Assembly: GCF_009914755.1 (NCBI RefSeq)
Contig: NC_060934.1
Direction: 5' to 3' (one strand)
Length of the DNA: 64,000 bases
DNA from: the human T2T-CHM13v2.0 reference genome, Homo sapiens
Shown: positions 7,131 to 34,330 of the stretch, in pieces
How the letters are laid out: each line of letters begins with the position of its first letter
How positions within the stretch are numbered: position 1 is the stretch's first letter
Translations under genes and position numbers: made by a program
The notes under the pieces: model-generated
What the model was told of the DNA's origin: nothing
What the model saw: the letters and a program-made list of their open reading frames with translations, nothing else
Database searches by the model: none

Positions 7131-8319
7131 TATGGAGTTCATTTGTCTTCTCAACATTAGGCAATATGTCCATCAAGTAACTTTAGTTGCGTGGTCAATT
7201 GTTCACCGTTGCTTAAAGTTTAAAAATAAAACCGTATTTGCACCAAAGCAGAGATAAACTTTAGTTAAGGCATCATTGGAGCCTTTACAAACACAGAACA
7301 TTTCTGCTTACTCAGGTAGCAATGATTTGAAACTGTTGAAGATATTTATCAATAATATCTATATACAATTTATTTTGGTACTTTCTGAAATTGTAAGGAA
7401 ATTTTGTTTAATTTAGGTATTCATTTGAAATTATAATACTTTAGATAAATCTTCATTTTAAAAGATATTTTCCTGAAATAGCTGCTTTGAAGTTTTAACA
7501 GCTTCATCTCTGAGTTACAACCACAATTTTACCTTTAGAAAGCATCCACTAGATTTAGTCAACCAAAATGTTATCTCACAGTCTTTGTTCAACGTGGGCA
7601 GATTGGGAAGTTTCTGTATTTTTAACATAAAGAAGCTACTGGTGACCTTTAATTCAAAGGTTAATTTTGAGTCTGCAAGTCTTTGTCATGTCTATACCCA
7701 AGTGAGGGTCATTTTCAGAGCAGGTAATAATAAGCTAAAAAATGCATTTCTTTTATTTTCTGTAAGGATTACAACATTAATTTTTTATGGTCAGAACAAA
7801 GGAGCTTGTTATTCAGCCTGGAGTCGGCTCTATTTTCCCCCTGGAAATATATAACTTCCTTTACACATGTCAAGACCAGCCCTGTTTGTGGACAATCTGT
7901 ACTCTGACAAGACTTTTATTGGCCTCCTAACACAGAAGAGAACTGTGCTTGGGCCTCCACTTTTCACTATTATTCATTTCTTGGGTTTGCTCATGAAAGT
8001 TCCAGTTAAAATGCAAATATATCAGTAACATTTTCAGCTACTTCTGTCTCAGGAAAATTAGTACAGCTGAGTTCACCAGGGCCTTAGGAGACTGGGACAG
8101 ATAAAATTTTAATGGGACCAAACCAAAGAAAATGATGGTACGTTAAACACTGCCTAGCGCTGCAGAGTTGAGAGGTAGAGAGCAAAAGGAACCTCCCAAA
8201 AGCTGAGAATGGAACTGGCTGCTGTAGTAGTGGTGAGCCATGTGCCTGGAAAAATTCAAGCAGAAGCTGCAGGAAATCTTGTGGTGACTCTGTAATAATA
8301 ATAGTGCCCCTAGTGACAT

Positions 8320-8530
8320 AGTGCAGTACTATTTTCAAATTGTTTTCAGATCCATTATTTCATTCATAATCCAATGAATCTTATGAAGAGAACAAGTTAC
8401 AACTGTTAAAGAAAGAAACTGGGTATCAGGGAATCTGTGCAATGGTCTCAAAGTCATACAATTAATGATCAATAGTGGAATCAGCATTAGCACCCAGTTT
8501 GCCTAACTCTAGTCTAGGGCTCTTCACTAA
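8320..8530 (-). mobile_element. MIR
   Basis: 'atttcattcataatcc...gaaactgggtatcaggg...aaagtcatacaattaatga...cccagtttgcctaactct'. Confidence 0.65.
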
Positions 8531-8668
8531 ACACTGTGTTTTTCCCCGATGATTCCCTGGACAGCAGTGGGAGTGACGCTGGCCTCTAAAGTCAGAAGTT
8601 ATAGTCTCAAGAGACCCAAAGCCAGTGTGAGATTTCCCTAAAGTCTTGTGTTTTATCTTTAAAAATAG

Positions 8669-9142
<474 letters not shown>

Positions 9143-9474
9143 TGACCATGGTTGTGTGGACTTGGCTGGGATTGCCTAGCCTTGATCTCGGCTGGGTTGG
9201 GTTCAGGTTTGCTGCAGAGGTCTTCTCATTCTCCCAAGACTGGCAGTGAACCAGGGCATGTTCTATGCATGGCAGATCAGAGGTGTGCAAGAAGAACAAG
9301 CAGAAACAGGCAATCCTCTTAAGGCAGCTGTCACCTCTACCCTTCTTCTGTTGGTTAAAGTACATCATAGAGCGAAGCCCAAATTCAGTGGGATGGGATG
9401 CATATTCAGCTTGCTTTACTGTACTGCAAAGTCTCATAGCAGAGGAAGTAAAAAACTGAAACAAGTAATCCAAT

Positions 9475-9897
9475 TGTATTAGTTTGTTCTCACACTGTTA
9501 CAAGGAAATACCTTAGACTTGAAACTGGGTAATTTATCAAGAAAAGAAGTTTAATTGGCTCATGATTCTGCAGGCTATACAGGAACCATAGTGGTTTCTG
9601 CTTCTGGGGAAGCATCAAGAAATTTACAACCATGGTGGTAGGCAAAGGAGAAGCAGGCACATCTTACATGGCTGGAGCAGAAGGAAGAGAGAGAGAGAAG
9701 GTGCTACACACTTTTAAACAACCAGATCTCACGAGAACTCACCCATTATAAAGTACCAAGGGAAGGGGGAATGGTGATAAGCCATTCATGAGAACTCCGC
9801 CCCCACAACCCAGTCATCTCCAACCAGGCCCCTCTTCCAACATTGGGGATTACAGTTCAGCGAGATTTGGGCAGGGACACAGATCCAAACCAGATCA
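9475..9897 (-). mobile_element. MST (MSTA/MSTB-like) solo LTR nested in the MLT1 provirus
   Basis: 'tgtattagtttgttctcacactg...gaaactgggtaatttat...ttaaacaaccagatctc...cagatccaaaccagatca'. Confidence 0.9.
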
Positions 9898-10584
9898 CTA
9901 GTAGACAGTGGCCTTCCCTCTTGACTGCAAACATTCACCCTGTGACCCACATGCAGAATACATTCACCTCCATGCTAAGACTCCAAAAAGTTTCATCTTA
10001 TCCCAAGAACAGGATCCAAGTCCTGAATCTCATGATTGACATTAGGTCCATATGTTGCTCTTCTTAATATGGGCTTTTAAACTAAAAAGGCAAGTTAACT
10101 GCTTATGCCCAATGCCCACACACCCATCACTGTGTACCTAATACGTAATAGTAAAAGAGGCAGAGATTAAATTTTGCAAAAACCCAAAACACTCCCATTT
10201 GAAAAGGTTAAGACTGGGAGGTACATAGCAGTCACTAGTCCACTGCAGTTCCAAAATCCACTGGACAAAGGTTGCCAGGGCATAGGTAAAAGAATATTCT
10301 TTGATTACATCTAGTTCTGATCCCCAGAAAGCAGCTCCCACCACACTGTTCTCCATGGCTCTTCACTCCACCCTACGAGAGAAGCTTCCTTTTCCATCCT
10401 CTTTCCCAGCTGCATCTTAAGAGGGCATTGGCAAATATGTCCTTCCTGGTGACTAAGAAGTTATCTCTGTCTATTCCTGCCTATATACTGTTGGTGTCCT
10501 ATAGGTCTTTTTACAGCCAAACAGTCACAGTCTCTTTCATTTAAAGCTGGCAGTACCTTGTCAATTTAACTATCTCAAAAGCTT

Positions 10585-22230: not shown

Positions 22231-24446
22231 TCAAACTGGGGTTGAAATGTTGGTGCTAGCCCATAGCAAAGAGGTATGTGTCTGGTTTCATAGAGAAGCA
22301 ACTCCCCTGCCTCCCTTTTTTGCCCACTTCTAGCCTCTGCATATGCCTAGAAGCACCAAGATCATTATTCAGCCATTTTTGCCCTTAAACAAACCAAATG
22401 CAGTCATTTCAAAGATATTCAGAAAGCATCTTGCCTTTATGCTCTTCAGGAAGCAGGAACCATGAAAATCAAGTTATTGTAGTTGTGCTTATGCGCCTTC
22501 TTGCCTCGGATTGACAGGGAAGGTATTGCATTTGGGGACCATAACCGCAAAATGGATTTGTGATATAGGAAGGAGACAATTTCTCCATGTGGAAAGGGGA
22601 GCACTGGGCCGGTAATTCCTTGTGGTGAGTTTTTCTTCCCTAGACAGCAAACACAACGGCAGAAACTGTTATTTTCTTTTTTACTGTGTATCCAACACCT
22701 GTCACAGTGCCTGGTACACCGTAGCCCTACAGTAAATGTTCGCTGAAAGAATGTTGAGAAAAAAAATCCACTGTTTCACTTGAAACTGCTAATTGTCATA
22801 CCAAAGTACTTGAAAACTGCATTTTCCATGAAGATCCTAAGTCATAAAACAACCATGAAATAATTGGAACTAATACTAATCCATTCATGTCTAAATTTAT
22901 GTACAAAATTATAAAATTTTAATATATTTTAAAAGGCTTTTTTAAAAATGAACTTTAACTTTGATCTTTATTGTTTTTAGTAGATTTTTCTATAAGCCTG
23001 AATTCCCACAGTTCAAAAGAATGAAGAGAGATGCTAGTTTACCCTTGTATTGCGGAAACTCCAACAATACTTAACTAGCTCACAGGGGAAAATGGGATTT
23101 CAGTCACATGGTTTTTATTCTTATTTACTCCTGAGCATCCCAGTATTTTAAAATGTAAAGGCATAAAGAGGAGATACAAATGCCTTCAAAACTCACTGTT
23201 ACTTCTTAGAAGCCCAGGATGACTTGAGAATTGAAAAACAGCACAGCTTCATGGTCTAACCTGTTTCGAAGGTGATTCCCAAGTCTCTTCTATGAATGCT
23301 TTGTACTGGGATTTCAACTGTTTGTGCTTTTAGTGTTTCTTAAGGAAGAAGCAGCCACATTTCATGATTCCTACCAACTTGCAGGAAGTTCTACTGTGAA
23401 AGAAGGATAAAAGAACTTAGTATTATTTTCAGGAGAAGGGTTACATTTTCCCACATTATCACATGTCCCCCCAAAAAGTATCATTGAAGGGAAAATTGAG
23501 GACTTCTTAAAAGAAAATAGAGTTTAAGGCCACTATGAAAAGAAATGCTTTATTTTTTTAATTGCTTGGGTCCATGTTCAATAAAGAGCTTCGCTAATCA
23601 TTTTTCCTAATTACTTTGGCTAACTCACATTTGATGGGAAAAATATATATTGTGGAAACTGCAGTGAAATGTAAGTTGTTCTCCCATGTAATTAGTTTGT
23701 TCTGGGAGCTTATTTTTATTACAAAAATAATTTGTGGTAGGTAGCTATAGGAAGACGCTCAGGCTGGAAGGTTTCAGGATAATATTTTCTATGTGAAACC
23801 TTCTCTACCATGAGAAGTCATTTTATTCCTTGGAATTCAAACATATACTTTACATCTAATTCTAGATAGAGAGATGTAACAGACCTGGGCCTTTCACTGT
23901 CTGGCAGCATTTTGGTGGCCTTCTATCCATGGAGGGAATTAAAGGCTTCAGGCATCAGGGCCCTGTATATTCTTTCAGAGAACCTATCTCTGGGGCCCTG
24001 TTTCCCTTTCTTACTTGTGTCTCCCTCTCAGTGCCAGTTCAGTTATATGGGAGGTGTAGGGAATGGTGGAGGTTGGAAGAAGGGCACAGCCATGCCTATA
24101 CCTGGAGTGATTTCTCCAGGGAACATTGACTGGTTTTGTTCATGGCTCCCTGAAGCCAGGAGGTATGGAGAAGGGGGCTTTCTTTTTTTTTTCCCCCCCA
24201 AAACTAATCTAACTGCCTGTTCTCTGAATCCCATTTATACCAACTCCCCAGGAATGTCCTCTCAACTATTTTCAATTTTACCCTCCGTTTGGCTCTTTCT
24301 CCTTTGCTTTCAAACATTAGTAAATTCACTTATATTTTTAAAAAGAAGAAAAAGAAAAAAAAAGACTTAACCTTAGCAAAGTCTTCAAACAAATATCCTT
24401 TACCTGGTGCCTTTATTTCTTTGTGTTCTCCTTCCTGACTTTTATG

Positions 24447-24849
24447 TACTTTGCAGTATGGCCCCATCCTAAAATATCTTTATTGTTAAGATTTTAACTC
24501 AATAAAAATCAAACCTCAATGCAGAAAAGAACCCCAAGAGGTTGTCTGGTCTGCATCCAAATCTTCAGGCATCAGTGGCCATGCACTTGCCCCAAGAGAA
24601 CAAATTTCCAGGACCCTGTTTCTCGTTCCTGCCTCTCTCTTGCTCTCAATGCTAATTCGAATACATGGGAGGCCAATGGAGAGCAAGCATTGCCCGACCT
24701 GGGGTGATTCCCCAATCTGCAGACAAGGCACAGGGGCCAACAGCCAGAGGACACTGTGTACTTCGATAAATCTTTTGGTGTTTTCTCATGCTCACCAATC
24801 TTTCTACCATGTTTGATACAGTTAAAAAGGCCAGTTCAATTTCCATGAC
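24447..24849. repeat. Left arm of a ~400-bp inverted duplication
   Basis: Its reverse complement aligns end to end with 26839-27240 (about 71 substitutions and 3 single-base indels by hand count). Confidence 0.97.
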
Positions 24850-25399
24850 ACTATATTCTGAATTTCATTCTGAACAACAGGGGAGAATTAGTTGGGGAAA
24901 CTGGGCACTTACAAAAGGTCTTACTGATTCTCTGGCTCAACAGAGAATTCTCATAAGCAGAGGGCCTTTGCATTGCATTGAAAATACTTTGATTCTGTGA
25001 GCAAAAACACAAGCATGGTTCGTATTGAGCATGGTTACTGATTTAAAAGCAATTCAAAGCTGAGTGTACACTCCAGATTTAATGTTTGGCTATGGTTTTT
25101 ATTTAGAAATATTTCAAGACAGAAAGAAGGCATTGTAAAAGTTACAGCACAACAGATGCAGACTAGATCTCTATCATTGGGATCGCTTTATATTAATATT
25201 TCTGAAAATAACTATCACTAAAAATAGCCATATACAGTTTTTTTCTGCTTTTCTTCTGGGCACTGTTACACAATTTATAAGAAAACAACTGCATTGCCTT
25301 TTAAAATCAGAATACAAATAAAGCGGTTTGCATGGTTGTATGTATATTTGGTGTTGCTGTTGGTTGCTTTGTTTAGTCTGTTGGTTGATTTGAATTAGG

Positions 25400-25870
25400 A
25401 AGATTCAAAAGAACAGGGTGAAACCTGTGTGTTTGCCCCAGGGAGGGTGCCTCATTGCAAGAATCAGGACCTGGGATAGGAGACAGAGAACTCACTGACT
25501 CTTGAGTAGCTGGAGGCAGTGTTGGACCCTGGCAGCACCAAGTAGGCACTGACAATTAAGGAGCAGGAGCAATGTGGCCAGGGAACCACCACTGCCATCT
25601 CTTGCCACAAGCCACTCTCACACTGCTGCCACTGCTACTTCTACCCTTCGCGTCATCTTGAGTCCTTCCCTCAGGGTTTAGAGTAGAGCCCACATCACCT
25701 ACCTGGACACTGGTGGCCAGGGATGGTGCAGAGATGGGGAAGGCGGAGGGAAACGTCTGAGAAGGGTCTTACCCTTTCCACTTAGATTAAGGGATGAGGG
25801 GGTAGATTCGCTGACATGGCAGAGAATTTCCCAATAATGCGAAGGAGTTTTGAATGGTGGACTCTCCCGC
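25400..25870. mobile_element. Old MaLR-like LTR (MLT1L/M/N-like), tentative
   Basis: GC-richer segment with 'ggaaccaccactgcc...gccactgctacttc...cacatcacctacctggacactggtggccaggga'. Confidence 0.4.
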
Positions 25871-25975
25871 AATATTCAGTATAGAAGGGGAAATGTCTTA
25901 GAACACTCTGACTAATAAAAATATCATGTGCCCTCTATTGATTTATTAAGATTACTATAGTGATCCCTCCCAAGT

Positions 25976-26250
25976 GATTCCAGCATTTTGGGAGGCCAAG
26001 GCGAGAGGATCGCTTGAGCCCAGGAATTTGAGACCAGACTAGACAACATAGCAAGGCCCTGTCTCTACTAAAAATTAAAAAAAATAATAATAACTGGGGA
26101 TGTTGGCACAAGTCTGTAGTCCCAGCTACTCAGGAGGCTGAGTGGGAGGATCACTTGAGCCCAGGAGTTTGAGCTTACAGTGAGCTGTGATTGCACCACT
26201 GCAGTCCAGCCTGGGTGATAGAGTAAGACCCTATCTAACAAACAAGCAAA
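25976..26250 (+). mobile_element. AluJ, 5'-truncated
   Basis: 'ggatcgcttgagcccaggaatttgagacc...gggaggatcacttgagcccaggagtttgag'. Confidence 0.92.
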
Positions 26251-26365
26251 TGATTACAGTAAACCTCATAAAAGTGTTGGAAGCATGGTTCATATATTAT
26301 CATAATTTCTAGCATTGTATACTTTTAAAATCCAACTCAGTAAAAGTATACCTTTATATAACTAG

Positions 26366-26740
26366 CGATATGGTTTGGTTGTGTCCCCACCCAAATCTCA
26401 TCTTGAATTATAGTTCTCATAATCCCCACGTGTCGTAGGAGGAAGCAGTGGGAGGTAATTGAATCATGGGGGGCAGTTACCCTCATGCTGTTCTAGTAAT
26501 AGTGAGTGATTTATCACAAGATCTGATGTTTTTATAAGGGGTTTTTCCCCATTTTGCTCGGCACTTCTCCTTGCTGCCACCATGTGAAGAAGGACAGGTT
26601 TGCTTCGCCTTCTGCCATAATTGTAAGTTTCCTGAGGCTTCTCCAGCCCTGCGGAAACGTGAGTCAATTAAACCTCTTTCCTTTATAAATTACCCAGTCT
26701 CTCGTATGTCCTTATAGCAGTATGAGAACAGACTAATGCA
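26366..26740 (+). mobile_element. THE1 (C/D-like) solo LTR
   Basis: 'gatatggtttggttgtgtccccacccaaatctcatcttgaat...gtgagtcaattaaacctctttcc...gactaatgca'. Confidence 0.93.
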
Positions 26741-26838
26741 ATTAACATCGGGCATTGAGTAACACAATGTGTATCTTGTAGGTCTGATGTCATTTCTGTG
26801 CCATGCAGTATCCTGGGGCACAAGTGGTGATCTGAACA

Positions 26839-27240
26839 GTCATGGAAATCCAACTGGCTTTTCAACTGTACCAAACACGCTGGAAAGATTGATGAGCATG
26901 AGAAAACACTGTCAGATTTATTCAAGTACACAGCTTCCTCTGGCTGTTGGATGCCGTGCCTTGTCTACAAATTGGGGCTTCACCCCAGGTCGAGCACTGC
27001 TCGCCCTCCGTGGGCCTCCTGTGTGTTCAAATGGGCACTGAGGGCAAGTGAGAGGCAGGAAAAAGAAACAGCATTCTGGAAATTGGTTATGTGGGGGAAA
27101 ATGTGTGGACTCTGATGGCCTGAACTTTTGAATGAAGACCAGATAATCTCTTGGAGTTCTTTAGTACATTGAGGTTTGATTTTGTTGAATTAAAACCTTA
27201 ACAATAAAGATATTGCAGAATGGGGCCAGACTGCAAAGTA
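26839..27240. repeat. Right arm of the ~400-bp inverted duplication
   Basis: See left arm; homologous pseudo-ORFs appear in the track (24652..24846 minus and 26769..27041 plus). Confidence 0.97.
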
Positions 27241-27241
27241 A

Positions 27242-27268
27242 ACACACACACACACACACACACACACA
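27242..27268 (+). repeat. (AC)13 microsatellite
   Basis: Read directly; abuts the outer end of the right inverted arm. Confidence 0.97.
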
Positions 27269-27459
27269 GCTGCTTTAATCGCCAATGTGAGTATATTTTA
27301 ATTGAAATGTTGCTCTACTTATAATTTAACTAATATGGCTCATCTTACATAATATAATCACTGTCTTTATGTAATAATTGGAGTTACTTATGTACTATTT
27401 TCCTGACCCCATTCATTCATACATCTGCCATGCTTCATATGCAAATGTCTGTCACAGAG

Positions 27460-28360
27460 CAGCCATTCGGTGAGTTCTTATTACATGAATGATCAAACTG
27501 AACTATGCGACAAATATTATTTCTGGTGTGAGAAACACAAAATGAGTAAGGCACAGGTCCTCCTCCAAAGAGTTCAGATTCTAGTGGATAAGATAGAAAG
27601 TAAACAAGTATTTAAGTGACATAAGATATGCTATAATAAGAGATACATGAAAATATTCTTAGCATTTATTGAGCCTTTACTGTATACCAGGGAGGTTACT
27701 ATATGGTTCACAGATAGTTATTTTATTAAGACAACTAAATGGCATGTGTGTATTTTTATTACCATCATTATCATTTCCATTTTATAGATGAGGAAACAGT
27801 CTTTGAGAGGTTAACTGATATAGAAAGTGGTGATTTGAATAGGAAGATTCAAAAGAATAGTATGAAGGCGGTGTTTGCACCAGAGAAAGTTCTTGATTGT
27901 AAGAAACAGAAGTTTGCCTGAGCGAGGGGAATGTCTAAACTCAAACCCTGAGCATCTCATCTGGAGGGCACACTCTTAGCCACTACTTCATGCCATACTT
28001 AAACAAGGAGGAGTTTGCTATGGTTTTCACAGAAGAAAGAGTGCTGCTCTGGTATCTTGCAGGCTGTGTAGGTGATTTTTTTTTCAGGCAGATACTGGAT
28101 ATTCCAGACAGAGGGTGTCACACACAGCAAAGCTGGGGTCATGAGAGAACATAGTTGAATAAGCAACTGCCAGTAGTTCAGCCGTGAGTTGGGCATTGGA
28201 TCCCTATGGGGTCTGTGATAGTAGATGAGGCTGGGAAAAGAAACCAAGAGGCAGGCAGCTGATGCCGACTGTGGTAAACAATCTCACGGGGCTCTCAGGG
28301 CTGTGGATATTATTCTCAGGAAGGTGAAGAGCCACGGAAGGAGGGGAGATGAGCAGATTT
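27460..28360. mobile_element. L2 and MIR relics
   Basis: 'tcctcctccaaagagttcagattctagtgg' (L2), 'ccattttatagatgaggaaacag' (MIR) and 'ggatattattctcaggaaggtgaagagccacggaagg' (L2). Confidence 0.6.
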
Positions 28361-28825: not shown

Positions 28826-29657
28826 TTAAATTTTATTTTGGTAGTTTTGGGGGTACAGGTGGTTTTTGGTTCCATGGATAAGTTTGTTAGTGGTGATTTC
28901 TGAGATTTTGGTGCACCTGTCACTCAAGCAGTGAACACTGTACCCAGTGTGTAGTCTTTCATCCCTCACCCCCCTCACACCCTTCCCCTTGAGTCCCCAA
29001 AGTTCATTATATCATTCTTATGCCTTCGCATTCTCATTGTTTAGCTCCGAAGTTATAAGTGAGAGCATATGCTACTTGATTTTCCATTCCTGAGTTACTT
29101 CACTTGGAATAATGGTGTCCAACTACATCCAGATTGCTGCAAATGCCATTATTTTGTTCTTATTTATGGCTGATTAGTATTCCATGGTGTATATATTCCA
29201 CATTTTCTTAATCCATTCACTAGGTGATGGGCACTTCTGGTGGTTCCACATCTCTACAATTGTGAATTGTGCTGCTATAAACATGTGCATGCAAGTGTTT
29301 TTTTGTTTTTTGTTTTTTGTTTTTTCATTTTGGGTAGATACCTAGTAGTAGGATTGCTGGATTGATTGGTAGATCTATCTTTAGTTCTTTAGGGAACCTA
29401 CACACCGTTTTCCATAGTAGTTGTACTAGTTTACATTCCCACTAGCAGCATAAAAGTGTCCCCTTTATACGACATCCACGCCAACATCTATTATTTTTTG
29501 ATTTTTTAATTATAGCTTAGCCATTCTTGCAGGAGTAAGGTGGTATCTCATTGTGGTTTTAATTTGCATTTCACTGATAATTAGTGATGTTGAGCTTTTT
29601 TTTATGTTTTTTGGCCATTTGTCTACCTTCTTTTGAGAATTGTCTGTTCACGTCCTT
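28826..29657 (-). mobile_element. L1PB-like 3' fragment
   Basis: 'ttttgggggtacaggtggtttttggttccatggataagtttgttagtggtgatttctgagattttggtgcacc'. TSD-like 'tccttcaaat..tattt' at 28808 and 29653. Confidence 0.9.
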
Positions 29658-31900: not shown

Positions 31901-34330
31901 TTCAGTATTTCACAGTTTTGTTGTCATTCAGTGGCCAGTGGAACTTAGTGTGGTGAATGGAGAAAATGTTGTTCTAAGTATTAGACAAAACAAGAACTCA
32001 GAGTAGGTAAGAATGTGTGCAAAGTTTTATGACGAAGTGGTCACAGAATCAACACTAGAACCTCGAATATAGATTAGCAGAGCTGGGACCCTATCCTCTA
32101 CTCATCAAGAACTTATAGCTTCATGTTGTTGGTAAAGAAACAGCCCAGAAATCAAATGGTTTCGCCAGGAACCTAGACTTCACCTGACATCAAGGCTACT
32201 CATCTCTCCTGTGTTATACGGTTTCAGTGGACCACTTTGATGCCCAAAAGAGCTTGAAAATAAAACTTTAAGTATGACAATATTCATAACTATTGAACTC
32301 AGCACAAGAAATAATTTAAATTGTATGGTCATAGCCAATATTTTAAAAGTATAATAGCATGAGTATTTCAGGGTGAAAACTCAACAAAATGTTTGTGATA
32401 TGTGTTAATTGAGGCATAGTTCACATTTTAATAGCCTGGCTACTAAATGATGGTCAAAACTCAATAATGTGTTTCTGACATAAGTGTGTTCAATTACCTT
32501 TTTCCATACTTTTATCCATCATTTTCCTTCTCCTTAAAATATGTTTCTCAGGATCCTAAGAGGAGTTTACAGAAACAAATTTCTATTGGGAAAAATACTG
32601 TTTTAACCAGTTGCCTTATTCTGTGAGCCCCCAGTTTTCTGGCATCAAGTAAATCACTATAGTTTCCCACAGCATAGAAATCTACCAAGTGCAGGGGGAG
32701 GTTGCAATGTCAAGTTCATTCTTCTGGGTCTCCTCAACAATCCCAAAACCCTCCTCCACAGAAGAGGTGCCTCTCAGCATCATCCATAATTTTGAAATCT
32801 TTAGGCTTCAAAATTCCATTTAGACAGAAACCTTTATGTTGGGCAATTCATGTTCACCAATGTTCCAGGCTCTCCTACCTGTCCTTACTCCCATGAGCAT
32901 GACCATGACCATGTCTTGTTTGGCATGGCTGAGGGAACCAGGCATCTCTGTGTAGCAGGCTCTTGGAGCGGCATAGCCACTGCAGCTGCACATCATCCTT
33001 AATAAAGGGATTAGAGATGCGAGTCTGCAATGGTTCAGCTTTTCATTCAGCCTCTCTGATTCTCAATTGGCCTCTCTTCATTTCCTTCCGCCCCCAACTA
33101 CCTAAGCCAACTCTTATTTTCATGGTTGACTTAGTCGAATGTGTTTACTTTCCTTTATAGCGTCCAACTAATGTTTTGGGGAAAATACTGGAAAACTGAA
33201 GTTAACTTGAACTCTAACTTTGGATAACTATAAAGCCCTGTGTGTAATTACAAAGCATCCTGAGCCAGGCTGTATATCATAGAGGTATTTTATTCTTCAG
33301 TTTTTTCTGCTTTTTTTTTTTTTTCTATCCACTTGAGTTTTAATTACTCAGCAGTTCTGCAGTGGGAACAATTCCATTATGACTTGTATTTTACAGACGG
33401 AGATCCTGGGGTCCTAAATTTGTGGCCGATTGCACTGTGTCCTGGAGACGGAGTGGAACCACAGCCCAGAGCCCCTGGGAATCATCCCTGAAAGACTGCA
33501 TTACTTCTCCATGGAGTCTTCCTCCTCCTGCTTATTTTCTTTTTGGGTAAGGTCTATCTTTTTATTAAATCATAAAATGAGCATCCATCATCTTGACAGT
33601 GAGTGAATTATGAGCTGTAGGCCTATCTATAAAACTTGGCTTCTGTTCATTCCCTCTCTGAGCTCAGTGGAACAAAATGTCCAAATTGAACCCTGCAATC
33701 TTCCCACAGGTATTTGTTCTGATATGTAGCTGCTTTATTTTTCAGTCATTCTTCCTTTGGTGTTGCGGACAGGGTTAGCACATATGTGTTATTTTTCAGA
33801 CCATGTATTAGATCCATTTATATGCCTGTCTTTGTGTTCAGACTCTGGCTCAAAGCCATGATAATGACTAAAGAATACGAAAATGCTCAGAGAACATGAA
33901 CTTTTTGGCAAAGGATAGAGGGAACGGTGTAGATACCTGATGACTGCCTGTGTCTATGGAGGGAATAGAATGAATCAGAAATAAGAGTTGTTTTTGGGTC
34001 AGTCCAACTATATGATCTTGATCAAAGTCAGGATCCCATAAAAGAGCAAAATTAATTTTCCAGTTTCATTGAGATCCCTTTGCTTTCCCCAAATCAGCCT
34101 ACATGAGTGGCCTTGAGTGTCTGGAATGGTGAGATGACCAATTAATCCCCAACTTTAGCATATTCATTCAGCCTAAATTCTGTTCATAAATCCACCAGTT
34201 CAATATTTTATGCTAATAAAAACTATTAACGTTTTTCATTTTCTCCCTTTACAAAGTTTTCATACAGCCCTCAACATTCTGCCTGCAAGATGTAAAATTT
34301 TGGTATTTAATCCATAGGAAGGTAGGAAAT

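What the first reader, a model, noticed from the sequence alone, without database searches (positions are those of the whole stretch)
24447..27240. ~400-bp inverted duplication of apparently unique DNA: candidate long-hairpin dsRNA element
Seen: 24447-24849 and 26839-27240 are reverse complements about 2 kb apart. By hand count they are ~82% identical (about 71 substitutions) with only three 1-nt indels and sharp ends. Many mismatches are adjacent doublets to quadruplets (about 14 clusters) between perfect 10-18 bp runs, which would be symmetric internal loops in a duplex. Isolated transitions favour G-U pairs in a minus-strand RNA (about 18 vs 8; all transitions about 24 vs 17, a weak trend), matching the strand of the exon candidates. 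An AluJ and a THE1 LTR lie in the spacer and neither arm is interrupted. I do not recognise the arms as a TE. Inference: a maintained long stem acting as an ADAR/Staufen substrate, a hairpin small-RNA precursor or a splicing/back-splicing bridge. Alternatives are paired enhancers, arms homogenised by gene conversion, or two copies of a low-copy LTR (the left arm read on the minus strand has TG...AATAAA...CA, but no clear TSD).
Basis: partly seen in the sequence, partly recalled or inferred. Interest (0 to 1): 0.85.

Follow-up and report, generated by a model that had tools for sequence, protein, structure and literature searches.

The report
Old non-transposon inverted duplication, KIAA1217 intron
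Two 400-base stretches in an intron of the human gene KIAA1217 are reverse-complement copies found nowhere else in the genome; they would fold into a long RNA hairpin, but nothing shows the pairing is preserved for a purpose.

Summary
Arms 24447-24849 and 26839-27240 align over 404 columns with 71 substitutions and three 1-nt indels (82.3% identity).

They are not a multicopy transposon of matching age. Whole-genome DNA searches with each arm, and two 27-mers allowing 3 mismatches, find only these two places. Control repeats give 7,812-10,553 candidates and 193 pattern hits. An older partial third copy lies 330 bp upstream, at 23938-24115, so the locus duplicated locally more than once. An ancient, highly diverged TE origin of the progenitor is not excluded.

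RNA from either strand is predicted to pair the arms (about 350 bp, -523/-560 kcal/mol).

Nothing indicates that the stem is maintained:
- Mismatch clustering is not significant (P=0.086).
- Identity is even along the arms (P=0.60).
- The G-U bias is not significant overall (24 vs 16, P=0.27).
- No annotated exon lies between the arms.

Conservation, editing and small RNAs could not be tested here.

Best reading: a neutral relic of a local inverted duplication, about 0.10 substitutions per site per arm. It would be a passive intronic dsRNA like an inverted Alu pair. Interest is low to moderate.

The parts
24447..24849 (+). Left arm (A1) of the inverted duplication, 403 nt
   Evidence: 82.3% identical to the reverse complement of 26839-27240. 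Apart from the other arm it has no match in the whole genome.
26839..27240 (-). Right arm (A2), 402 nt, reverse complement of the left arm
   Evidence: With A' as outgroup it carries more derived changes than the left arm: 21 vs 9 in 157 columns, P=0.043.
24850..26838 (.). Spacer of 1,989 nt. It consists of unique DNA (24850-25973), an Alu (about 25974-26250), short unique pieces, and a THE1-like LTR (26367-26740).
   Evidence: Stretch 24850-25950 has no other genome match except an 82-nt local one. None of the stop-free frames taken from the spacer has a Pfam match (15 frames tested across arms, A' region and spacer).
23938..24115 (+). A': an older, partial third copy in direct orientation to the left arm. 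It matches arm positions 109-267.
   Evidence: nhmmer E 4.1e-14, 46.3 bits. It is 67.5% identical to the left arm and 60% to the right arm over 157 columns. As a query it finds only itself in the genome.
24869..24876 (+). TCTGAACA, first copy of an 8-nt direct repeat, 20 nt inside the spacer from the left arm
   Evidence: The same 8-mer abuts the right arm. Empirical P is 0.001 for an abutting 8-mer and 0.025 for any shared 8-mer between the two 40-nt inner flanks. This was noticed post hoc.
26831..26838 (+). TCTGAACA, second copy, directly abutting the inner end of the right arm
27242..27267 (+). (AC)13 microsatellite, one base beyond the outer end of the right arm. It hides any target-site duplication on that side.

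Best explanation
This is a locus-specific inverted duplication of about 400 bp of low-copy intronic DNA. It is not a pair of independent insertions of a repeat family. It arose once, roughly at the time THE1-type elements were active, and has since drifted neutrally to 82% identity. That is a K2P distance of 0.204, or about 0.10 substitutions per site per arm. At a recalled neutral rate of 2.2e-9 per site per year this gives about 45 million years; the date is an inference.

The same sequence had already been duplicated locally before, giving the partial copy A'. The region therefore made local copies repeatedly.

Both arms lie in one intron of KIAA1217, which is on the + strand. Every pre-mRNA therefore carries both arms and should fold them into an imperfect duplex of about 350 bp with a 2-kb loop. 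Such a duplex would be expected to behave like an intronic inverted Alu pair: bound and promiscuously A-to-I edited in the nucleus, then removed with the intron, with no dedicated function.

Shown here: the duplication, its near-uniqueness in the genome, the third copy, the predicted pairing, and the absence of any statistical sign of maintained pairing. Inferred: neutrality, the date, and editing.
For: Only the two arms are found in the 3.1-Gb assembly:
- DNA search with each arm gave 2 of 2 first-look candidates.
- Two 27-mers allowing 3 mismatches gave 2 places each, with 0 in the reversed controls.
- A gapped 27-nt pattern matched 1 place, the left arm.

Controls with the same tool:
- The THE1-like LTR gave 10,553 candidates.
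- An older repeat at about 80% identity gave 7,812 candidates.
- A 27-mer from a MIR-like stretch gave 193 places, with 0 in the reversed control.

A' lies 330 bp from the left arm (E 4.1e-14). That closeness is hard to get by chance from a rare family and argues for local duplication.

There is no transposon signature: no significant target-site duplication around either arm or around the whole unit, and no Pfam match in 15 stop-free frames of the arms, the A' region and the spacer.

The substitution pattern looks neutral:
- Mismatches are spread as in random placement (P=0.086).
- The longest perfect run is 18, against a random mean of 23.
- Identity is even across eight bins (P=0.60).
- Transitions to transversions are 40:31, and 7 substitutions are explainable as CpG decay.
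- G-U asymmetry is 24 vs 16, P=0.27.

Pairing potential:
- Cofolding gives -523 kcal/mol (+ RNA) and -560 kcal/mol (- RNA), with 347 and 351 inter-arm pairs.
- Two inverted Alu pairs in the window give -315 and -336 kcal/mol, with 212 and 227 pairs.
- The MFE fold of the full 2,894 nt keeps 347 (+) and 350 (-) arm-to-arm pairs.

Passages read in PMC12695637 state that intronic dsRNA clusters are edited mainly by nuclear ADAR1 p110 and are non-immunogenic because they are spliced out.
Against: - Neutrality is argued from absence of signal in only two sequences. Compensatory changes are invisible without orthologues, and none were available.
- Isolated transitions favour G-U in a minus-strand RNA, 19 vs 7 (P=0.029, uncorrected, post hoc).
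- The right arm has more derived changes than the left, 21 vs 9 (P=0.043). A strict clock does not predict this.
- The genome DNA search misses matches at about 71% identity over 110 nt. The A' query did not recover the left arm.
- Single-sequence nhmmer found 0 MIR copies in 200 kb.
- The MIR 27-mer control found only 193 places for what I recall as a family of several hundred thousand copies. An ancient, strongly diverged TE family of modest copy number could therefore be the ultimate source of the progenitor.
- One weak nhmmer hit in neighbouring DNA (L028:4847-4997, E 0.007, 10.9 bits) is unexplained. The three-sequence profile does not recover it.
- No Dfam or RepeatMasker check was possible.
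Confidence: 0.6

Rival explanations
1. A selected long-hairpin RNA element. The stem would be kept paired because it serves as a dedicated ADAR or Staufen substrate, a small-RNA precursor, or a structural element that affects KIAA1217 splicing.
For: - A very stable predicted stem in both strands that survives in the fold of the full 2.9 kb.
- The DNA is not a common repeat.
- Isolated transitions are biased to G-U in minus-strand RNA, 19 vs 7, P=0.029.
- Neither arm is interrupted by the two retroelement insertions.
- Chen et al. 2017 (PMC5398296; abstract and sections 6 and 12 read, passages found in 8, 13 and 15) argue that some expressed, stable inverted duplicates are functional.
Against: - 18% mismatch is what neutral decay of a THE1-age duplicate would give.
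- Mismatch clustering and run lengths match random placement, and identity is uniform along the arms.
- The overall G-U bias is not significant, P=0.27.
- Two insertions both missing the arms has probability about 0.39 by length (my arithmetic from the coordinates).
- No annotated exon lies between the arms, so they cannot bracket a back-spliced exon (hub annotation).
- The arms are intronic, so cytoplasmic sensors or Staufen would not normally see them (PMC12695637 passages).
- Mammalian Dicer handles long dsRNA poorly (abstracts of PMC11239679 and PMC6391682 as shown in the listing).
- The longest uninterrupted helices are only 19 bp.
Confidence: 0.08
2. The arms are the two termini of one mobile element that never amplified or whose relatives are lost. 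They could be long terminal inverted repeats of a DNA transposon or foldback element, or the two LTRs of a single provirus with one LTR later inverted.
For: - Both ends of the homology are sharp.
- The left arm extended to 24445-24850 reads TG...CA, with AATAAA 32 nt before the end on the minus strand.
- Both outer ends start with TA, which is compatible with a TA target-site duplication.
- If the 8-nt direct repeat TCTGAACA marks a later insertion, the original unit was a compact 833-bp palindrome with a 27-nt loop, like a foldback or MITE-type element.
Against: - There is no other copy in the genome at detectable similarity.
- No significant target-site duplication was found for either arm or for the unit, and the right outer flank is a microsatellite.
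- No transposase, gag, pol or env relic appears in 15 frames.
- The right arm has AG where an LTR should have TG.
- With only two copies, sharp ends are expected of any duplication.
- A' is a partial internal fragment in direct orientation, which a terminal-repeat model does not predict.
Confidence: 0.14
3. The duplication is much older than 82% identity suggests, and the arms have been partly homogenised by gene conversion. Under this reading the arms could be, for example, two copies of an ancient, now unrecognisable repeat.
For: - A', at 60-67% identity, shows that much older paralogy exists at the locus.
- The tools cannot see MIR-age families of modest size.
- The left arm is closer to A' than the right arm is, 21 vs 9, which could reflect conversion between A' and the left arm.
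Against: - Identity is even along the arms, with no long identical tract. The longest perfect run is 18 nt, and heterogeneity across bins has P=0.60. Recent conversion would leave identical tracts.
- Two 27-mers gave no further genomic hit, whereas a MIR 27-mer gave 193.
- nhmmer found no convincing extra copy in 264 kb.
Confidence: 0.1

Closest known systems
Intronic inverted Alu pairs (IRAlus), the main human ADAR substrates
   Same: Two reverse-complementary arms a few hundred nt long, about 2 kb apart in the same intron and transcript. Complementarity is imperfect at about 80%. The predicted duplex is at least as stable as two inverted Alu pairs in this window. The expected fate is nuclear editing and removal with the intron (PMC12695637 passages).
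   Different: The arms are not SINEs or any detectable multicopy repeat. The pair arose by one local duplication, not two retrotranspositions. The arms are longer (403 nt). Editing was not tested here.
Inverted duplicates in non-repetitive DNA, catalogued with Inverted Repeats Finder (Chen et al. 2017, PMC5398296)
   Same: The definition is the same: two reverse-complementary copies separated by a spacer, in DNA not masked as repeat. The paper raises the same open question of neutral by-product versus functional hairpin.
   Different: That catalogue capped spacers at 1,000 nt and analysed intergenic cases. The 80th percentile of arm length was 36 nt. This pair is intronic, has 403-nt arms and a 1,989-nt spacer, so it sits in the far tail and would not have been listed under those settings.
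Hairpin-RNA (hpRNA / endo-siRNA) loci of Drosophila and mouse oocytes. The original reports are recalled, not read here.
   Same: A long inverted repeat of non-transposon sequence that can be transcribed into a single long hairpin.
   Different: Those hairpins yield mapped small RNAs and usually have targets elsewhere in the genome. Here the arms match nothing else in the genome, so there is no trans target. The stem is 18% mismatched with helices of 19 bp at most. No small-RNA data were available.
Solo-LTR pairs, or long-TIR / foldback DNA transposons
   Same: Arm length of about 400 bp, sharp ends, TG...CA and AATAAA in the left arm, and TA at both outer ends.
   Different: No family, no target-site duplication and no coding relic. 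The right arm lacks the TG.

Membership tests
Multicopy transposable element (any LTR, SINE, LINE or DNA family of similar age) | Other copies in the genome at a divergence comparable to that between the arms | tested here: not met
   Each arm finds only the two arms, 2 of 2 candidates. Two 27-mers with up to 3 mismatches find only the arms. Controls gave 10,553 and 7,812 candidates and 193 pattern hits.
Ancient (MIR/L2-age) transposable element as source of the progenitor | Weak but significant similarity to many dispersed copies, or to a Dfam consensus | tested here: inconclusive
   nhmmer with the arm profile over 264 kb gave no convincing hit beyond A'. The best was E 0.007, and the three-sequence profile did not reproduce it. 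The same method found 0 MIRs in 200 kb, and the DNA search missed a match of 71% identity over 110 nt. No Dfam library is available.
LTR of an endogenous retrovirus | TG...CA termini on each copy | tested here: inconclusive
   The left arm extended to 24445-24850 has TG...CA. The right arm has AG at the corresponding 5' end and runs into (AC)13 at the 3' end.
LTR of an endogenous retrovirus | 4-6 bp target-site duplication flanking each solo LTR | tested here: not met
   The left arm has none. The right arm has AACA/AACA, with shuffle P=0.16, and the second copy is part of the microsatellite.
LTR of an endogenous retrovirus / DNA transposon | Relics of gag, pol, env or transposase between or near the terminal repeats | tested here: not met
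   Pfam scan of 15 stop-free frames (50-166 aa) from the arms, the A' region and the spacer. There was no match below E 0.1, and two matches at E 0.13-0.16 were far under their cut-offs.
DNA transposon with terminal inverted repeats | Target-site duplication outside the two outer ends | tested here: inconclusive
   The best candidate was CTTTTAT/CTTTAAT beyond the microsatellite, shuffle P=0.24. TA is present at both ends but lies inside the aligned arms. The (AC)13 masks the right flank.
ADAR-substrate intronic dsRNA (IRAlu-like) | Inverted complementary arms in one transcript that are predicted to pair | tested here: met
   Both arms lie in one KIAA1217 intron (hub annotation). There are 347 arm-to-arm pairs in the MFE of the full 2,894-nt + strand RNA. 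Cofolding gives -523 kcal/mol.
ADAR-substrate intronic dsRNA (IRAlu-like) | Clusters of A-to-I editing in both arms | not testable with these tools
   No RNA-seq or REDIportal access. The only paper holding both KIAA1217 and A-to-I reports 325 sites gene-wide without positions.
Hairpin small-RNA precursor (hpRNA / endo-siRNA / miRNA) | Small RNAs mapping to the stem, or a match to a known RNA family | tested here: inconclusive
   Rfam at E<=1 gives no family centred on the arms. The only overlap is a SCARNA7-like hit of 24.5 bits (threshold 65) at 27227-27366, which covers 14 nt of the right arm plus the microsatellite. Small-RNA data are not available.
Back-splicing (circRNA) bridge | Complementary arms lie in the two introns that flank the circularised exon(s) | tested here: not met
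   The hub's RefSeq table lists no exon between 24849 and 26839. The only exon in the window is at 33397-33546, downstream of both arms.

The most novel reading that the evidence does not exclude
The pair is a primate-era, non-transposon long hairpin kept under selection in the KIAA1217 pre-mRNA, or in an antisense transcript as the isolated-transition G-U bias would suggest. It would act as a dedicated dsRNA element: an editing or dsRNA-binding-protein platform, or a small-RNA source. That would make it a human counterpart of the hpRNA loci of flies and mouse oocytes. My evidence does not exclude this because orthologues, editing data and small-RNA data could not be examined.
Probability: 0.07. 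Interest if true: 0.6.

Novelty: new member of a known kind. Interest (0 to 1): 0.25.

Why it matters
Nearly all long dsRNA known in human transcripts comes from inverted Alus or other repeats. A 400-bp hairpin made of non-repeat DNA is a cleaner object. Reads map to it uniquely, so editing, dsRNA-binding or small-RNA processing can be measured on it without multi-mapping problems. Its two arms also give an internal clock for a local inverted duplication.

If the 8-nt direct repeat at the inner flanks is real, the locus would also be a natural example of a near-perfect palindrome that survived because DNA was inserted at its centre.

As it stands it is most likely one more neutral structural relic, and it should not be counted as a functional element.

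Tried and rejected
- **Earlier scan notes.** A second call failed on a missing field and was not repeated.
- **Covariance-model search of the genome.** I built a sequence-only model of the three copies. This genome does not accept such a search. I used patterns instead, which the error message names as allowed.
- **Gapped 27-nt pattern from blocks conserved in all three copies, 3 mismatches.** It matched only the left arm, because the other two copies differ by indels. It is therefore a weak test.
- **Sampling more of the genome for nhmmer.** 200 kb was obtained. The nhmmer test covers only 264 kb. By its own controls it sees THE1-age and L1-age families (8 and 14 hits) but not MIR-age ones (0 hits).
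- **Weak hit L028:4847-4997 (E 0.007).** The alignment is gappy. It was not recovered with the three-sequence profile at E<=10. Reversed-sequence decoys reached only 2.8 bits. The stretch is itself unique in the genome except its last 60 nt or so. I treat it as probably chance, but it is unresolved.
- **Retrocopy model.** One arm would be an L1-mediated copy of a polyadenylated transcript of the other. The AATAAA lies 32 nt before the end, and (AC)13 could be a decayed tail. I rejected this for lack of any flanking target-site duplication.
- **Larger duplicated unit.** This would be the arm plus the 82-127-nt B repeat (25384-25510 / 27829-27956). I rejected it because B is in direct orientation on the wrong side, and the DNA between arm and B is not homologous.
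- **Simple fold-back priming at the loop centre.** The four innermost pairs of the putative 27-nt loop are complementary, but only 2 of the outer 9 are. The arms therefore did not originally run through to the centre.
- **Protein-coding relic in the arms.** One frame is open for 87 and 94 codons in both arms, but there is no Pfam support.
- **Literature.** KIAA1217 with 'inverted repeat' gave 0 papers. KIAA1217 with 'A-to-I' gave 1 paper, with gene-wide counts only.
Full report
**The observation**

The inverted repeat is there, at the stated coordinates. The repeat finder reports four collinear inverted segments that together tile 24447-24849 against 26839-27240. blastn joins them into one 404-column alignment at 81.7% identity, E 4.9e-108.

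A global alignment gives 401 aligned columns, 71 substitutions (40 transitions, 31 transversions), three single-base indels and 82.3% identity. The K2P distance is 0.204.

**Is it a repeat family?**

The window's own 3.1-Gb assembly could be searched. Each arm as a DNA query returns only the two arms; the first look found 2 candidates and both were scored.

The same tool was checked with two controls:
- The THE1-like LTR in the spacer gave 10,553 candidates.
- An older repeat at 29031-29400, whose best matches are only 79-82% identical, gave 7,812 candidates.

A family whose members differ from each other about as much as the two arms do would therefore have been seen.

Two 27-nt stretches, one from each arm, were searched with up to three mismatches. 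Each hits only the two arms, with none in the reversed-pattern control. A 27-mer from a MIR-like stretch of the window hits 193 places.

There are clear limits to this:
- The DNA search did not recover a 71%/110-nt match that I know exists.
- Single-sequence nhmmer found no MIR in 200 kb.
- The 193 MIR hits are a tiny share of what I recall as a family of several hundred thousand copies.

I can therefore exclude a family of THE1 age or L1 age, and a very abundant ancient family. I cannot exclude that the progenitor was a copy of a modest-sized, MIR-age family. Dfam is the missing test.

**A third copy**

A profile of the two arms finds a further, older homologue at 23938-24115. It lies 330 bp upstream of the left arm, in direct orientation, and covers arm positions 109-267 (E 4.1e-14; alignment). 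Over 157 shared columns it is 67.5% identical to the left arm and 60% to the right arm, while the arms are 78% identical to each other there.

Nothing else in the 64-kb window comes close; the next best hit has E 0.83. A copy this near is very unlikely for an independent insertion of a rare family, and abundant families are disfavoured by the tests above. I therefore read it as an earlier local duplication.

Using it as outgroup, the right arm carries 21 derived changes against 9 in the left arm (P=0.043). This is a mild asymmetry that I cannot explain with confidence. Possible causes are an error-prone copying event, conversion between A' and the left arm, or chance.

**No transposon hallmarks**

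A scan for direct repeats around the left arm, the right arm (with and without the adjoining microsatellite) and the whole unit gives nothing better than shuffled flanks; the lowest P is 0.16. Fifteen stop-free frames from the arms, the A' region and the spacer have no Pfam match.

The left arm does read TG...AATAAA...CA on the minus strand if extended to 24445-24850. The right arm has AG at the corresponding start and runs into (AC)13 at its end.

**Does the pattern of differences say 'maintained stem'?**

It does not.
- The 74 differing columns form 56 runs. Random placement gives 60.6 +/- 3.0, so P(<=56) = 0.086.
- The longest perfect run, 18, is shorter than the random mean of 23.
- Identity across eight bins ranges from 74% to 90% without significant heterogeneity, P=0.60. 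There is therefore no conversion tract and no protected core.
- Transitions that would be G-U in minus-strand RNA number 24, against 16 for plus-strand RNA (P=0.27).
- Only the subset of isolated transitions (19 vs 7) reaches P=0.029. That subset was chosen after looking at the data.

With two sequences and no orthologues, compensatory changes cannot be seen. This is absence of evidence, not proof of neutrality.

**Pairing potential**

This is real, but it follows trivially from the complementarity. The arms cofold at -523 kcal/mol as plus-strand RNA and -560 kcal/mol as minus-strand RNA, with 347 and 351 inter-arm pairs. Two inverted Alu pairs from the same window give -315 and -336 kcal/mol, with 212 and 227 pairs. 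In the minimum-free-energy fold of the whole 2,894-nt region the arms still pair with each other, 347 pairs on the + strand and 350 on the - strand. The longest uninterrupted helices are 19 bp.

**Context**

According to the hub's RefSeq table the region is intronic in KIAA1217 (+ strand). No exon lies between the arms; the only exon in the window is at 33397-33546. The arms therefore cannot bracket a back-spliced exon. As an intronic duplex they should be edited in the nucleus and discarded. Passages read in PMC12695637 describe exactly this for intronic dsRNA clusters.

Mammalian Dicer's poor use of long dsRNA makes a somatic small-RNA role unlikely. This rests on abstracts of PMC11239679 and PMC6391682, seen in the listing.

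Rfam finds nothing centred in the arms.

**A possible footprint of origin**

The 8-mer TCTGAACA abuts the inner end of the right arm (26831-26838). It recurs 20 nt from the inner end of the left arm (24869-24876). These are two of only three plus-strand copies in the 64 kb.

In 4,000 random pairs of 40-nt stretches at the same spacing, the last 8 nt of one was found in the other in 0.1% of cases. Any shared 8-mer occurred in 2.5%.

If this is a target-site duplication, then 24877-26830 was inserted into a palindrome whose loop was only 27 nt. That stretch would have been about 1.3 kb before the Alu and THE1 arrived. Long palindromes with short loops are unstable (recalled knowledge), and a central insertion would have stabilised this one.

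Three points count against leaning on this:
- It was noticed post hoc.
- The insert has no terminal inverted repeats and no other genomic copy.
- The 27-nt loop is complementary only at its four central pairs.

I rate it about one in four. An orthologous empty site would settle it.

**Comparison with what is known**

Functionally the closest thing is an intronic inverted Alu pair. As a sequence class it belongs to the 'inverted duplicates in non-repetitive DNA' catalogued by Chen et al. 2017. That study found 4.3 million in human, with an 80th-percentile arm length of 36 nt and spacers capped at 1 kb. This pair is an unusually long member and lies outside that catalogue's spacer limit and its intergenic focus.

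It fails the tested defining features of an LTR pair, a TIR transposon and a circRNA bridge. Membership of the hpRNA/endo-siRNA class cannot be tested here. I found no paper linking KIAA1217 to an inverted repeat.

**Verdict**

- 'Unique, not a common TE' is confirmed within stated limits.
- 'Maintained hairpin' is not supported, but it has not been tested where it matters: orthologues, editing and small RNAs.
- Most likely (0.6) this is a neutral relic of a local inverted duplication, about 0.10 substitutions per site per arm old, that passively forms an intronic dsRNA.
- Interest is 0.25, and it is a new member of a known kind.

Noticed in passing
window 23938-24115: An older partial paralogue (A') of the arm sequence, direct with respect to the left arm. 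It is 60-67% identical and has a roughly 21-nt insertion relative to the arms. The right arm is significantly further from it than the left arm is (21 vs 9 derived changes).
   Followed up: yes
window 25384-25510 and 27829-27956: A second local repeat (B) in direct orientation, 78% identical over 82 nt and extendable to about 127 nt. One copy lies in the spacer and one lies 590 nt beyond the right arm. The outer copy directly follows a stretch at 27660-27815 that I recognise from memory as MIR-like, so B may be a MIR tail. It was not found elsewhere in the genome by the DNA search.
   Followed up: partly
window 24869-24876 and 26831-26838: An 8-nt direct repeat, TCTGAACA, at the inner flanks of the two arms. 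One copy abuts the right arm (empirical P about 0.001). It may be the target-site duplication of an insertion that split a short-loop palindrome.
   Followed up: partly
window 27242-27267: An (AC)13 microsatellite, one base beyond the outer end of the right arm. It hides the flank that would show a target-site duplication.
   Followed up: yes
L028:4847-4997 (G000 C10:24232847-24232997): A weak, gappy nhmmer match to arm positions 182-342 (E 0.007, 10.9 bits), about 212 kb downstream in the same gene. A three-sequence profile does not reproduce it, and the stretch is itself unique in the genome. It is probably chance.
   Followed up: partly
window 27227-27366 (-): An Rfam SCARNA7-like hit of 24.5 bits (threshold 65, E 0.006) spanning the microsatellite and AT-rich flank. 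I take it for noise.
   Followed up: no
window 26158-26217 (-) and 26002-26062 (+): Sub-threshold Rfam hits to mir-3135 and mir-1285 inside the spacer Alu. I recall both as Alu-derived miRNA families, so the hits reflect the Alu and not a miRNA gene.
   Followed up: no
window 24572-24835 (-) and 26831-27115 (+): The same reading frame is free of stops for 87 and 94 codons in the two arms, and several other frames of the arms are also long and open. None has a Pfam match. I did not compute any substitution-ratio test.
   Followed up: partly
window 24341-24365: A purine-rich A tract (AAAAAGAAGAAAAAGAAAAAAAAAG) between A' and the left arm. It may be the tail of an old retroposed element on the + strand.
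   Followed up: no
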